Of a stretch of DNA of 64,000 nt, positions 14,361 to 22,354 are shown piece by piece; the first letter of the stretch is position 1, and every line of letters starts with the position of its first letter. The notes under the pieces were generated by a model. It did no database searches. It had not been told where the DNA came from and worked only from the letters and a program-made list of their open reading frames with translations. Source of the DNA: the human T2T-CHM13v2.0 reference genome, Homo sapiens; assembly GCF_009914755.1 (NCBI RefSeq), contig NC_060936.1, one strand, 5' to 3'. A program made the translations under genes and the position numbers.

Positions 14361-14651
14361 AAGAATCCCTTTTCTGACATTGTACATTATCTCTTGAATT
14401 TTTCTATTGGCATTAACTTTCACTTATTTACTTTTATCCTCCCTATGATATTTTTAGTAGTTATAAACCAGAAAAGCATATTTCCATTTAATAAATATTA
14501 ATTTAATAAAATAAGTTTCACAGTATATCAACAGATGATTGAAAATTAGAAGCTGCTATCCTTCCATATCAGATTACATTCTTTTCTAGCCCTTGTTAAA
14601 GACTGAGCTACTAAGCCTTCTTGCTTGGTTTCTACATTTCCTATTTATTGT

Positions 14652-14652
<1 letters not shown>

Positions 14653-14682
<30 letters not shown>
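14653..14682. repeat. (CA)15 microsatellite in the STYK1 3'UTR, (UG)n in the mRNA
   Basis: Direct read. Confidence 0.95.
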
Positions 14683-14685
<3 letters not shown>

Positions 14686-15455
14686 TTCTTTTCACTGTTC
14701 TAACATTGACTCTCTAGGCTTAGTCTCCTTAGTCTAATCGGAACTAGGAAGCTAGCTTAATGAACAATACATGTTGAATGTTCTTAATCATGAAATGACT
14801 CCTCCACCTTCTAATTAAACGTAGTAACAAACAGAATTTACCTGTCTCAGAATCAGATAAAAGGGGACCATCTTTCTTTTATCTATACCTAAGGTGAAAC
14901 TCAGAGGTTTTTCCGTTATAGTTCTCCTCCAGCCCCACATGTAGGGCTCAGGACTGAAGAACTTTGTGTCCTACCACCTTTTCTTGAAGGAGGTGTTGGT
15001 CCATATCTGTAATCCTGAGCAAGAAGAACCTTAAATTTTCTTTCCCTTCAACTCTTTTATTGGATTTCTATTCCTTCATTTCATTCCAAATTTTCATCTA
15101 GATAAAAATGTGGTTCCAGAGGAAACTAGCCTCGGACGGGAGGGATGAGCTTATTTGTGCCATGCCCCAACAAATACTGCAGAGTTCTAAAACCTCCTTT
15201 GCACAGGTCCACCACTTCTACCCAGGATTTCTAGGACTGGGACAGCAGAAGTGAGACTGACAGTATGTCTTAGCTCAGGATGTGTAGAGTCCCATCCAGC
15301 ATCATTTCAGATTTCCCGAGAAATGTGTAAAGGAAGATCAAGAATCCATGTCCCATTTCTCCCTTTGTGTCCCTGGGAAAGACCATTCTCTGTTCTTAGA
15401 GGAATTGATTCCAAGAACATATACTCATGCATGAATGTTTCTTGCCCGAGACTCT

Positions 15456-15660
15456 TCAAAGCATGCTATAGTTGTAGAAGAGGCTCTCCACTCTGATGCC
15501 GGCCACAGCTGCATACAGTTCAGGTACCACCAACTCTGGTACTTGTAACACAGCCTCGTCATCTGCAGTTTTAATGGCAGCTTCTAGGCGCAAGCGCAGC
15601 TCTCTAGGTGAGGGGCGGTCAGCCTCACGCCAGCGCCAGCAGGACTTCATGATACTGTAC
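15456..15660 (-). CDS. STYK1: STYK1 last coding exon (YSIMKSCWRW...SLFYNYSML*)
   Basis: cag|GTACAG acceptor, TGA at 15456-15458, 205 nt; nine coding exons sum to 1269 nt = 422 aa. Confidence 0.96.
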
Positions 15661-16113
15661 CTGAGAGGGAAACAAGAGAAACTGACTTCCTTGACGAGGC
15701 AAATGTATGGGGAGCATGTCTCCTCTCCTCACAAACTTTAACAAACAACTCTGCAATTCTTTAATTGTCTTCTGTTTGCCCTGTTACTCATATTCTTCCC
15801 AGAGAGTGATATTCCTTCTCAATCTTTTTATATCAAGTCTCTTAATAGCACTTTCTCAACAAGTGCTCTTGTATAATAGGAATGACTTAACATTTTCCAA
15901 ACTAGGGTATGACAGGACAGTTTTATCACTACATATTGTTTGCTGTAACATTGTAAGCATTGTGCAGTAAAGTAACAGGGCTGGGTAGAAATGAACACAT
16001 GTCATTTTTACTCTGATATGAGACGGAGCTTTTAATCATGTATACTGCTGCATACTTTAGGTTGATTTTCATGTTTCAGATATCTCCTCATCAAAATGTT
16101 ATGTTCTTTAATA

Positions 16114-16185
16114 CTTGTGCCTAGAAGCTGCTGCTAGAATTGCAGATGACAAGGCTGTGTTACAAGTACCAGAGGTTGTGGTACC
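16114..16185 (+). repeat. Inverted partial duplicate of the STYK1 last exon (pairs with 15523-15594)
   Basis: Ungapped 63/72 identity to the exon sense sequence, including a 23-nt perfect core. Confidence 0.93.
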
Positions 16186-17187
16186 AGGTCAGGTATTTTG
16201 TCAGTTAGGTGTCTTTCCCAGTATTAAGACCAGCCTTTAACACATAGAAATGTTTGTCATCAATTTTTTTCTATTGTACCTAGCTCCATCACTATATTCT
16301 GTGCGTGTGTGTGTATGTGTATACTCATATATAATTAAGATACTTAAATTTAATCTGCTTGATGCAGTAATTATTTATCATAAGGAAAACCAAGTGCTGT
16401 AAATTTACCCATTCAATGATAAAAAACTTACAAAATAGCAACAATTCTAATAAAAACATTAATATATTCTCTGCTGCCTCCTTATACACAATTTAACCTT
16501 TTCTTACATTCTACAGCAGTTCCTTTTTGAACTTCATTGGTAATAACAGTCTATGTAATTTTTTATTTTTCCATTTCCTGCCTCTAGGTTGGTTCACTAA
16601 CTGTCCCAATCTGCTGACAATATTGGATCCTCCTTCTGCCTTTCTAATTTCTTCTTATCTCCCCTTCCTCTGGTTGGCTTCTATCACACTGAGAGTTGGA
16701 AAAACAGGGAGACAGTCATTTAAAAGTTAAATACTAAATAAGAACTGGTAAACTCTGAATGAGTAACTCTAGTGCAATGGCTTTTATGACAGCTGTCTGA
16801 ACTGTGGCTGGCAGAAGACTGACATTTAGACTAAACACAACTATACTTGCATTGGGTTTAGTTTACTTGTTACCTATTTTAGAAGCTTCCCATGGAACTA
16901 AACTATAATAAAATTAGATTCCTGATATAGTTCTCAGCGTGTGGTGGGGGTATGTGTGTGTATGTGTGTGAGTATGTGTGAGTGTGTGTATGTATATGTA
17001 TATATAATATATATGCATATATAATATATGAGATAGGTATATTTTACTGCATGGGTTTGGTTAAAAGCTGTACATGGGTACATATACACAGGTGAGGATC
17101 ATCTGAGCCCTTTGAAAAGGGCACGATTGATAGAGGGCTAAACAACATTTGGAATGAAAGAGGAGCAGGCCTTTAAAAACCACTTAC

Positions 17188-17284
17188 ATGGTATGTGTGC
17201 AGCTACTGGGTCTCTTCATGATTTTCCTTCTTTGGAGATGCTCTAGGATGCTGGTAGGAGGGACTTCAGGATACGGTGGTGCTC
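17188..17284 (-). CDS. STYK1: STYK1 coding exon (GAPPYPEVPPTSILEHLQRRKIMKRPSSCTHTM)
   Basis: cag|GAGCAC acceptor, CAT|gtaagt donor, 97 nt. Confidence 0.95.
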
Positions 17285-17949
17285 CTGTCATTACGAAAAT
17301 AATGAGAACTTTAAGGTCCTCTAAAATATGAACTGTAACTAACACTATTCTTCATCCACTTGGGTTGGTTGCTTGCAAAAGATATAGCCATAGGAAAAAT
17401 ACTACATACAATTCAGTTGCTCCCTGGTGATCAAATATGGATATAATTTAGTGAATTGGGGGGAAAGGTGTTTTGGAGAAAAAAACCTGATAAGTTAGGA
17501 GAATCTTGAATCTCTAAGAAAGTGATCAACTAAGACAAGGTAAGACATAAGACCTGTCCTCCACTCTCCATACATGGGAAAGTGTGCAGTTTCTCAGTCA
17601 AATGAATTAATAAGTCTGGAGTAAACATTTTTATGTTTATGCAAGACCACTCTGGGAATTATCCTTGGGATTTGAAAACATCCCTTGGATTTGGTAATAT
17701 TTTGGGGAAAATAAAGAGGAAGAGAGCAAAAGAAAGGTAAAAAAGGACAGGGAAGAAGGGACTGGGGCAAGGAGAAAATAATCACTTTATATGACTATCA
17801 CGGGAATCAGGCTTAGATAACATGTCAGTCCATTTCAAGCTTCAGCACTGTACTGAAACCCTTTCAGAAAGCATACATCATCCACCCCTTAAATAAACAC
17901 GCTTGCATATTTGCATACAGGTACACACTATTTTGGGGCTCATCCTTAC

Positions 17950-19451: not shown

Positions 19452-19817
<366 letters not shown>

Positions 19818-19963: not shown

Positions 19964-20172
19964 ACATCTGCTCTGATGCTAGCAGGTCTCAGGAGAAGCC
20001 GTTCTGGGGCAAGCCACTTGAGAGGTATGGTTTGAGTAGAGGAGATGGCCCCTCGGGTGTAAACTTCATAAGCCAGGCCTAATCCACAGAGCTTAGCAGT
20101 GAGATCACTTTGCATCAGAATATTCCTGGCTGCCACATCCCCATGGAACAAATGCTTCTCCTGCAGGAATTC
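19964..20172 (-). CDS. STYK1: STYK1 coding exon (EFLQEKHLFHGDVAARNIL...LCGLG...WLAPE...ADV; catalytic loop and activation segment)
   Basis: cag|GAATTC acceptor, TGT|gtacgg donor, 209 nt; tyrosine-kinase motifs. Confidence 0.95.

Positions 20173-20499: not shown

Positions 20500-20825
<326 letters not shown>

Positions 20826-22034: not shown

Positions 22035-22354
<320 letters not shown>

What the first reader, a model, noticed from the sequence alone, without database searches (positions are those of the whole stretch)
15523..16185. Inverted copy of the STYK1 last coding exon in the upstream intron: candidate exon-intron dsRNA hairpin (editing-complementary sequence)
Seen: 16114-16185 on + reads CTTGTGCCTAGAAGCTGCTGCTAGAATTGCAGATGACAAGGCTGTGTTACAAGTACCAGAGGTTGTGGTACC. 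This aligns without gaps at 63/72 to the sense sequence of the minus-strand exon at 15594-15523 (codons L378-P401), with a 23-nt perfect core. It is not a transposon. In the pre-mRNA the two segments are complementary, separated by 519 nt. Two of the nine mismatches are G-U wobbles, and two place an exonic A opposite C: 15575 (ATT, I384) and 15571 (AAA, K385). Established: intronic complementary sequences direct site-selective ADAR recoding (e.g. GRIA2), and A:C mismatches are favoured editing sites. Inference: editing would give I384V and K385R at the end of the kinase domain.
Basis: partly seen in the sequence, partly recalled or inferred. Interest (0 to 1): 0.85.

Follow-up and report, generated by a model that had tools for sequence, protein, structure and literature searches.

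The report
Exon-derived inverted copy in STYK1 intron
A 72-base piece of the last coding exon of the human kinase gene STYK1 sits as an old inverted copy in the intron just upstream, so the unspliced RNA can fold into a strong double-stranded stem of a kind known to attract RNA-editing enzymes, but whether it is edited remains untested and it is most likely a harmless relic.

Summary
Window 15523-15594 (STYK1 last coding exon, codons L378-P401) and 16114-16185 (intron 10) are an ungapped inverted repeat: 63/72 matches, a 23-nt perfect run, 519 nt apart. These are the only two copies in the genome and neither lies in masked repeat.

As pre-mRNA the arms form a -111.5 kcal/mol duplex with a 34-bp helix. 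In-register pairing averages 0.86 and is about 1.0 in the helices, in contexts up to 2 kb. The 3' splice site lies in the loop.

The intronic copy keeps residues A/R/K, as rodent STYK1 does, where human has I384/K385/E390. The mismatches therefore arose from exonic G-to-A substitutions after the duplication.

The same architecture is published for ASNS, and I recovered that duplex with the same tools. There it is edited only in hominines, after an A:C mismatch arose.

I file STYK1 as a new member of a known kind: a non-repeat exon-intron dsRNA and candidate ADAR substrate. Editing, conservation and function could not be tested here. The mismatch pattern shows no selection for pairing. Low-level, multi-site, probably neutral editing is the most likely outcome.

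The parts
15523..15594 (-). Exonic arm. It is part of the STYK1 last coding exon (third base of R377, codons L378-V400, first two bases of P401) and is the source of the duplication.
16114..16185 (-). Intronic arm in intron 10, 454-525 nt upstream of the 3' splice site. It is antisense to the exon arm in the pre-mRNA. On the + strand it reads as the coding sense and translates to L-C-L-E-A-A-A-R-I-A-D-D-K-A-V-L-Q-V-P-E-V-V-V.
   Evidence: only two copies in the genome; 0% masked repeat
15595..16113 (-). 519-nt loop of the predicted hairpin. It holds the first 66 nt of the exon, the 3' splice site (15660/15661) and the last 453 nt of the intron.
   Evidence: annotation given with the finding
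15534..15567 (-). Exon side of the 34-bp uninterrupted helix (33 Watson-Crick pairs plus one G:U at 15557). Its partner is 16141-16174.
16141..16174 (-). Intron side of the 34-bp helix.
15568..15576 (-). Loosened AU-rich segment with 4 mismatches and 1 wobble in 9 positions. It contains the two exonic As opposite C: 15575 (I384 ATT, editing would give V) and 15571 (K385 AAA, editing would give R).
   Evidence: (pair probabilities 0-0.75)
16118..16140 (-). Three intronic As opposite exonic C (16118, 16132, 16140). They are equally favoured candidate editing sites but would leave no trace in spliced mRNA.

Best explanation
A roughly 72-nt stretch of the STYK1 last coding exon was copied in reverse-complement orientation into the intron 0.5 kb upstream. 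I infer a DNA-level event such as replication template switching, tens of millions of years ago.

Since then both arms have drifted. The intronic copy took about 4-5 changes. The exon took 4 nonsynonymous changes (A384 to I by two changes, R385 to K, K390 to E). The intronic copy is therefore a fossil of the older exon sequence, and the two exonic A:C mismatches are G-to-A substitutions opposite a retained C.

In the pre-mRNA the two arms form a stable imperfect 72-bp duplex with a 34-bp helix and a 519-nt loop that contains the 3' splice site. This forms as soon as the exon arm is transcribed and lasts until the intron is spliced out. Such a duplex is a plausible ADAR substrate.

The expected outcome is low-level editing at several adenosines in both arms. 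This could include I384V and K385R, where K385R would re-create the older residue. I see it as a by-product of the structure, not a selected, site-selective recoding device.

What is shown: the duplication, its uniqueness in the genome, the predicted thermodynamics and the direction of the substitutions. What is inferred: the mechanism of origin, folding in vivo, any editing and its neutrality.
For: Repeat and uniqueness. Of the 25 longest inverted pairs in the window (50 nt or more, within 5 kb; 26 found, 25 shown), 24 lie in masked repeats. Only this pair has 0% masked on both arms.

Structure:
- The 701-nt MFE is -234.9 kcal/mol with z = -7.6; 0 of 20 shuffles fold as well.
- The arm duplex is -111.5 kcal/mol. 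In-register pair probability averages 0.86 and is about 1.0 in the helices, in 701-, 1301- and 2001-nt contexts.
- Adding the exon arm lowers the MFE by 78-89 kcal/mol.

Direction of change:
- The copy carries the Marmota residue at 3 of the 6 positions where Marmota differs from human.
- It carries the Cricetulus residue at 2 of 5 such positions, and the Gekko residue at 0 of 8.
- If all 9 differences had arisen at random in the copy, 3 or more Marmota matches occur in 130 of 100,000 simulations.

Substrate likeness: in the dsRNAscan preprint (PMC11838218, Table 1), edited non-repetitive dsRNAs have medians of 30 contiguous bp, 87.5% paired and a 509-nt loop. Unedited ones have 14 bp, 75.2% and 1407 nt. 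This hairpin has 34 bp, 90% (65/72 including G:U) and 519 nt.

Precedent:
- ASNS and SEMA5B are described in PMC8897444 section 12.
- The 'opposite C-ancestral G' rule is in PMC6360793 section 7.
- The ASNS duplex recovered here is 134 nt, 129/134, with a 992-nt loop, -258.8 kcal/mol and one exon-C:intron-A mismatch between 55- and 51-bp helices. It joins the first coding exon to the upstream intron.

Origin: template switching makes reverse-complement copies of nearby sequence (PMC8794818, passages).
Against: - No RNA data were available, so neither folding in vivo nor editing is shown.
- Only 0.9% of predicted non-repetitive dsRNAs (4,597 of 497,429) carry known editing sites.
- At 72 bp and -111.5 kcal/mol the duplex is shorter and weaker than the median edited non-repetitive dsRNA (144 bp, -184.8 kcal/mol).
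- ASNS-like duplexes in non-hominine primates were not detectably edited.
- The A:C sites here have only short flanking helices (3 and 2 bp). A15575 has a 5' C, which by recalled ADAR preference (U > A > C > G) is not favourable.
- STYK1 is not named in the main text of the GTEx recoding survey, and its supplementary site list could not be seen.
- The ancestral-state inference rests on only three partial orthologues: two rodents and one gecko. The gecko shares I-K with human at 384-385.
- No switch-point microhomology is visible at the edges of the copy (read), so the origin mechanism is not demonstrated.
Confidence: 0.6

Rival explanations
1. The intronic copy is a functional editing-complementary sequence, maintained by selection. 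It directs site-selective ADAR recoding of I384V and K385R in the STYK1 C-terminal tail and so produces functionally distinct protein isoforms.
For: The duplex is strong and both target As lie opposite C. A:C mismatches that arose by G-to-A substitution are favoured origins of robust editing (PMC6360793 section 7; SEMA5B in PMC8897444). K385R would re-create the residue kept by the copy and by both rodents.
Against: There is no sign of selection for pairing: 5 of 7 transition differences break pairs. The target As sit in the least stable part of the stem (pair probabilities 0-0.75). Seventeen other exonic As are paired, including favourable UAG/UAC contexts, so selectivity is not expected. This region of the tail varies among the three orthologues. 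No editing report was found: STYK1 with 'RNA editing' gave 6 papers, with 'editing sites' 3 and with 'dsRNA' 11 (10 listed). Two were opened and cite STYK1 only in their reference lists; the other listings were judged irrelevant by title.
Confidence: 0.08
2. Inert relic. The duplication is real but has no RNA-level consequence. Co-transcriptional splicing, RNA-binding proteins, helicases or local competing structure prevent a stable duplex, or the gene is expressed too weakly, so no measurable editing or processing effect occurs.
For: The base rate of editing among predicted non-repetitive dsRNAs is 0.9%. The ASNS duplex is unedited outside hominines. Before the exon arm is made, the intronic arm folds locally on itself and its neighbours, with 39 of 72 nt paired. 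STYK1 is absent from the main text of the GTEx recoding survey.
Against: The long duplex gains 78-89 kcal/mol over the local alternatives. Its contiguous helix, percent paired and loop length match the edited class, not the unedited one. It already carries five A:C-type mismatches.
Confidence: 0.27
3. Splicing or processing element. The stem encloses the 3' splice site and the first 66 nt of the last exon in a 519-nt loop. In this way it modulates removal of the last intron, or retention and decay of the transcript.
For: The geometry is as stated. Long-range pre-mRNA pairings are associated with splicing outcomes in the PCCR catalogue (PMC8052449, passages).
Against: All five RefSeq/Gnomon STYK1 transcripts use the same last-exon acceptor and none retains the intron. 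The arms do not cover the splice site or the expected branch-point region. In the catalogue, stable pairings are depleted around active splice sites. No conservation data are available.
Confidence: 0.05

Closest known systems
ASNS exon / upstream-intron dsRNA (PMC8897444, section 12 and Fig. 6a legend; recovered here at T2T chr7:99099097-99099230 and 99100223-99100356)
   Same: Both are non-repeat inverted copies of coding-exon sequence lying in the intron immediately upstream. In both, the 3' splice site sits in the loop, there are long helices, and an A:C-type mismatch was created by a G-to-A substitution after the duplex existed.
   Different: ASNS is longer and cleaner: 134 nt at 129/134, helices of 26, 55 and 51 bp, -258.8 kcal/mol and a 992-nt loop. 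STYK1 is 72 nt at 63/72, its longest helix is 34 bp, the duplex is -111.5 kcal/mol and the loop is 519 nt. In ASNS the A of the mismatch is intronic, whereas STYK1 has two exonic and three intronic. Editing is documented for ASNS and not for STYK1.
SEMA5B human-specific recoding site and the 'opposite C-ancestral G' rule (PMC8897444 section 12; PMC6360793 section 7)
   Same: In both, an exonic G-to-A substitution inside a pre-existing dsRNA turns a G:C pair into an A:C mismatch. Editing there would give back the older base.
   Different: For STYK1 the ancestral G is inferred from the fossil copy and two rodent proteins, not from primate genomes. Editing has not been observed.
   Same: Exon-intron pairing in the pre-mRNA is needed before splicing, and the intronic partner is lost from the mRNA.
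   Different: By recall, the classical ECSs lie in the downstream intron, are short and imperfect, are conserved across vertebrates, and give near-complete, site-selective editing. The STYK1 element is upstream, is a recognisable 72-nt duplicate, and shows no evidence of conservation or selectivity.
Template-switch mutations that create reverse-complement repeats and hairpins (PMC8794818, passages)
   Same: Both involve a reverse-complement copy of nearby sequence on the same chromosome, which creates a ready-made stem.
   Different: The events scanned in that paper are short and close together. The largest pattern mentioned there was 59 bp, and a maximum distance of 8 bp was used for its two-step cases. 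Here the copy is 72 nt and lies 519 nt away. No ancestral reconstruction or switch-point signature is available.
Inverted Alu pairs, the usual ADAR substrates
   Same: Both are intramolecular long dsRNA within a pre-mRNA. Several such pairs lie in other STYK1 introns.
   Different: This pair is not repeat-derived: it is 0% masked and has only two copies in the genome. One of its arms is coding sequence.

Membership tests
Exon-intron dsRNA ADAR substrate (ECS-type hairpin) | Intramolecular complementarity between exon and intron of the same pre-mRNA, on the transcribed strand | tested here: met
   72 nt at 63/72 plus 2 wobbles, both arms within the STYK1 transcription unit; the MFE and partition function keep the duplex
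Exon-intron dsRNA ADAR substrate (ECS-type hairpin) | A helix long enough for ADAR; more than about 30 contiguous bp is preferred in edited non-repetitive dsRNAs | tested here: met
   34 contiguous bp, against a median of 30 in edited and 14 in unedited non-repetitive dsRNAs (PMC11838218 Table 1)
Exon-intron dsRNA ADAR substrate (ECS-type hairpin) | Observed A-to-G RNA-DNA differences that depend on ADAR | not testable with these tools
   No reads or editing database were available and supplements are closed. No main-text mention was found.
Exon-intron dsRNA ADAR substrate (ECS-type hairpin) | For a selected ECS: conservation of the intronic arm and of pairing beyond the neutral expectation | tested here: inconclusive
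   No other mammalian genome was available. Within human, 2 of 7 transition differences preserve pairing (p = 0.45), so there is no positive sign.
ASNS-type exon-derived inverted intronic duplicate | The arms are recognisable inverted copies of unique exon sequence in the flanking intron | tested here: met
   the ASNS comparator was recovered with the same approach
ASNS-type exon-derived inverted intronic duplicate | An A:C mismatch created secondarily by a G-to-A substitution | tested here: met
   The copy retains the A/R/K states shared with rodents; the chance expectation is 130 in 100,000. This rests on three partial orthologues only.
Template-switch mutation product | A reverse-complement copy of nearby sequence | tested here: met
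Template-switch mutation product | A parent/child reconstruction showing a single-event origin and its switch points | not testable with these tools
   No outgroup genomes were available. No microhomology is evident at the edges.
Transposon-derived inverted repeat (e.g. inverted Alus) | The arms belong to a dispersed repeat family | tested here: not met
   Only 2 places in the genome; 0% masked on both arms, whereas the 24 other listed pairs lie in masked repeat (67-100% per arm)
Known structured RNA family (Rfam), including miRNA precursors | A match to a covariance model at its gathering score | tested here: not met
   In 15000-17400 the only hit is mir-297 at 38.3 bits (gathering score 90), on a TG/TA simple repeat at 16958-17024 and not on the arms

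The most novel reading that the evidence does not exclude
The intronic fossil copy may act as a working editing guide. ADAR would deaminate the two exonic As opposite the retained Cs. A fraction of STYK1 mRNAs would then encode the older Arg385, and Val at 384. Lineage-specific G-to-A substitutions in the C-terminal tail of this oncogenic kinase-like protein would be partly undone at the RNA level, in a tissue- or ADAR-dependent way. The same stem, which encloses the 3' splice site, would couple this editing to the kinetics of last-intron removal.
Probability: 0.1. Interest if true: 0.55.

Novelty: new member of a known kind. Interest (0 to 1): 0.35.

Why it matters
If editing is confirmed, STYK1 would join ASNS and SEMA5B as a clear case of how recoding sites are born. 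First a one-step inverted duplication supplies a ready-made stem. Later G-to-A substitutions opposite the retained C create favoured editing sites.

The element is also useful whether or not it is edited. The intronic copy preserves an older version of the exon. It shows that four amino-acid-changing substitutions hit codons 384-390 on the human lineage.

STYK1 (NOK) is studied as an oncogenic kinase-like protein, so variable residues in its tail could be of interest. No function is known to me for residues 384/385 (recalled). The check is cheap, because public RNA-seq and multi-species alignments would settle it.

Tried and rejected
- Transposon or dispersed repeat: rejected.
- Chance match: rejected (E = 2.5e-16 genome-wide).
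- Larger decayed duplication or retrocopy crossing an exon junction: a gapped local alignment of the 600-nt flanks gave only the same 72 nt. There is no evidence for either, and an RNA-mediated origin can be neither shown nor excluded.
- Known RNA family: none on the arms.
- Full-length STYK1 orthologues: not obtainable. The protein word search filters by length, and my 67-aa exon query returned only 3 named fragments, with 31 candidates from unnamed sources left out. Querying the whole protein would have required typing a joined sequence, so I did not.
- Cross-species conservation of the intronic arm: no mammalian genome is reachable with these tools.
- Selection for pairing: the wobble-versus-disruptive count is uninformative (2 of 7).
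- Literature: STYK1 with 'RNA editing' (6 papers), 'editing sites' (3) and 'dsRNA' (11, 10 listed). I opened two, where STYK1 occurs only in reference lists. The other listings I judged irrelevant from their titles.
- Two literature searches were badly framed and gave nothing useful.
- A chromosome-wide count of exon-derived inverted intronic copies was not attempted, because the fetch caps allow under 2 Mb.

Full report
**Observation**

The repeat finder reports the arms 15523-15594 and 16114-16185 as a 72-nt inverted repeat, 88% complementary, with 519 nt between them.

A script gives 63/72 ungapped matches and a longest perfect run of 23. A gapped local alignment of the surrounding 600 nt on each side returns the same 72 nt and nothing more.

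The annotated CDS parts sum to 1269 nt, which is 422 aa plus stop. The in-frame translation of the last exon therefore covers residues 356-422, and the exon arm covers L378-P401.

In the RNA the nine non-matches are:
- three exon-C:intron-A (15590, 15576, 15568)
- two exon-A:intron-C (15575, 15571)
- two wobbles (15574 U:G, 15557 G:U)
- one U:C (15533) and one G:A (15531)

Editing of 15575 would give I384V and editing of 15571 would give K385R.

One refinement concerns the position in the protein. The Pfam kinase profile is matched by exon residues 1-23 at profile positions 234-256 of 258. The match is weak (E = 0.14) because only a fragment was scanned. The domain therefore ends near L380, and residues 384/385 open the C-terminal tail.

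**Not chance, not a repeat**

A search of the whole T2T genome with 16080-16230 found two places only: itself and the exon arm (E = 2.5e-16). No masked repeat of 100 nt or more lies between window 10544 and 19437.

In a window-wide scan for inverted pairs of 50 nt or more within 5 kb, 26 pairs were found and 25 were listed. Twenty-four of the 25 lie in masked, Alu-like repeats. Only this pair is 0% masked on both arms.

**Structure**

- Folded as RNA, the minus strand of 15500-16200 has an MFE of -234.9 kcal/mol that contains the long-range stem. The z-score is -7.6 and 0 of 20 shuffles fold as well.
- The two arms alone give -111.5 kcal/mol. In-register pair probabilities average 0.86 and are about 1.0 in the helices, in 701-, 1301- and 2001-nt contexts.
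- In register, the helices (Watson-Crick plus G:U) are 4, 13, 3, 2, 34, 1 and 8 bp long.
- Before the exon arm exists the intronic arm pairs locally (39 of 72 nt). Adding the exon arm lowers the MFE by 78-89 kcal/mol.
- The loop holds 453 nt of intron, the 3' splice site and the first 66 nt of the exon.
- No Rfam family matches the arms.

**History**

The protein word search with the 67-aa exon translation returned three named partial STYK1 C-termini: Marmota, Cricetulus and Gekko. They were aligned.

Read on the + strand, the intronic copy encodes L-C-L-E-A-A-A-R-I-A-D-D-K-A-V-L-Q-V-P-E-V-V-V. At human I384, K385 and E390 it has A, R and K. Marmota has A, R, K, Cricetulus has S, R, K, and Gekko has I, K, Q.

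The copy equals Marmota at 3 of the 6 positions where Marmota differs from human. It equals Cricetulus at 2 of 5 such positions and Gekko at 0 of 8. If all nine differences had arisen at random in the copy, three or more Marmota matches occur in 130 of 100,000 simulations.

I conclude the following:
- The exon read A-R...K when it was copied.
- Four of the nine differences (15575, 15574, 15571, 15557) are later exonic, amino-acid-changing substitutions.
- Four are changes in the copy (16118, 16140, 16175, 16177).
- One synonymous difference (15576/16132) cannot be assigned to either arm.
- The two exonic A:C mismatches are therefore G-to-A substitutions opposite a retained C.

Four to five changes in 72 nt give a Jukes-Cantor distance of 0.058-0.073. 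With recalled primate neutral rates this suggests an age of tens of millions of years, with very wide error. The inference rests on three partial orthologues, and the gecko shares I-K with human.

Of seven transition differences, two keep pairing as wobbles and five break it (binomial p = 0.45). There is no sign of selection for the stem.

**Comparison with what is known**

The GTEx recoding survey (PMC8897444; passages, section 12 read in full) describes three relevant points:
- An ASNS exon pairs with intronic sequence in a perfectly paired 50-bp dsRNA that is conserved in most primates.
- That duplex is not edited, or is edited at a single position only, outside the Homininae. A G-to-A change in the intronic arm made an A:C mismatch. 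[quoted passage not shown]
- A human-specific exonic G-to-A change in SEMA5B created an edited A:C site.

I recovered the ASNS element in this genome as a positive control. In 40 kb of chr7, a self-BLAST on the opposite strand gave one pair of at least 95% identity and at least 35 nt, out of 122 hits. Its properties are:
- 134 nt, 129/134 matches, loop of 992 nt.
- One arm covers the first coding exon including the start codon; the other lies in the upstream intron.
- The duplex is -258.8 kcal/mol.
- It has one exon-C:intron-A mismatch between helices of 55 and 51 bp, as the paper describes.

The architecture matches STYK1: an exon-derived inverted copy in the upstream intron, with the splice acceptor in the loop.

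Other literature bears on the reading:
- PMC6360793 (abstract, section 7) shows that 'opposite C-ancestral G' positions are favoured birthplaces of robust editing.
- The dsRNAscan preprint (PMC11838218, passages and Table 1) gives medians for non-repetitive dsRNAs. The 4,597 edited ones have 144 bp, 30 contiguous bp, -184.8 kcal/mol, 87.5% paired and a 509-nt loop. The 492,832 unedited ones have 75 bp, 14 contiguous bp, -44.6 kcal/mol, 75.2% paired and a 1407-nt loop.
- The STYK1 hairpin has 72 bp, 34 contiguous bp, -111.5 kcal/mol, 90% paired and a 519-nt loop. It looks like the edited class in three measures, like the unedited class in length, and is intermediate in energy.
- PMC8794818 (passages) documents template switching as a source of reverse-complement copies. 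The largest pattern mentioned there is 59 bp and the distances are short, so that origin is plausible here but not shown.
- PMC8052449 (passages) links long-range pre-mRNA pairings to editing sites (odds ratio 2.1) and to splicing. It notes that such pairings are depleted over active splice sites.

**What would be edited**

The exon arm has 19 adenosines.
- Two lie opposite C, in the loosest part of the stem (pair probabilities 0-0.75), with flanking helices of only 3 and 2 bp.
- Seventeen are paired. These include UAG (15585) and UAC (15546, 15540, 15525) contexts, which would all be synonymous. They also include possible K385E, T386A and Q394R changes.

The intronic arm also has 19 adenosines. 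Three lie opposite C (16118, 16132, 16140).

By recalled ADAR neighbour preferences (5' U > A > C > G), and by the abstract listing stating that 5'-UAN triplets dominate bystander editing, I expect scattered low-level editing. I do not expect two clean recoding events.

**Against my reading**

- Nothing here shows folding or editing in cells.
- The base rate of editing among predicted non-repetitive dsRNAs is 0.9%.
- The ASNS duplex was unedited in most primates.
- STYK1 has 0 occurrences in the main text of the GTEx survey.
- No paper among those returned for STYK1 with 'RNA editing' (6), 'editing sites' (3) or 'dsRNA' (11, 10 listed) deals with this. I opened two, which cite STYK1 only in their reference lists. 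The rest I judged from the listings.

**Verdict**

Selected, site-selective recoding has no support.

The element is best filed as a new member of a known kind. My probability estimates are:
- the duplication is real: about 1
- some editing is detectable in either arm: about 0.5-0.6
- recoding at 5% or more in mature mRNA: about 0.15
- an adaptive function: about 0.05

Interest is moderate to low (0.35). The check is cheap and the fossil-copy aspect is neat.

Noticed in passing
window 14649-14686 (3'UTR) versus 16296-16327 and 16944-17003 (intron 10): A (CA)n run in the STYK1 3'UTR is complementary to two TG/TA-rich simple repeats in the upstream intron (20-29 nt, 81-92% complementary; pairs I2-I17). 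This gives a second possible exon-intron pairing in the same pre-mRNA. The sub-threshold Rfam mir-297 hit at 16958-17024 (38.3 bits against a gathering score of 90) lies on one of these simple repeats and is probably a low-complexity artefact.
   Followed up: partly
window 19574-19765 and 20516-20707; also 20519-20699 and 22161-22341: Inverted Alu-like masked repeats flank the coding exon 19964-20172 (192 nt, 73% complementary, 750 nt apart) and pair across the next intron (181 nt, 81%). This is the usual configuration for Alu-driven editing, and by recall for exon skipping or back-splicing.
   Followed up: no
L004, T2T chr7:99099097-99099230 and 99100223-99100356 (ASNS): The ASNS exon/upstream-intron inverted duplicate is 134 nt long (129/134). 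Like the STYK1 copy, it lies wholly inside one exon, starting 14 nt into the first coding exon and spanning the start codon. Two cases with the same layout hint at a recurrent mutational route, but they are too few to distinguish a DNA-level from an RNA-mediated origin.
   Followed up: partly
window 16114-16200, + strand: On the + strand the intronic copy keeps an open frame over all 23 full codons. It is followed directly by donor-like GT motifs (CAG/GTCAGGTA, read). No + strand gene is annotated here, so this is probably meaningless.
   Followed up: no
window 15456-15659 (last-exon translation) against P0001-P0003: Codons 384-390 of the STYK1 tail vary among the three partial orthologues, and by the fossil-copy inference took four nonsynonymous substitutions on the human lineage. 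The adjacent VLQVPELVVPELY stretch is identical from gecko to human. This suggests a conserved C-terminal motif next to a fast-evolving linker.
   Followed up: no
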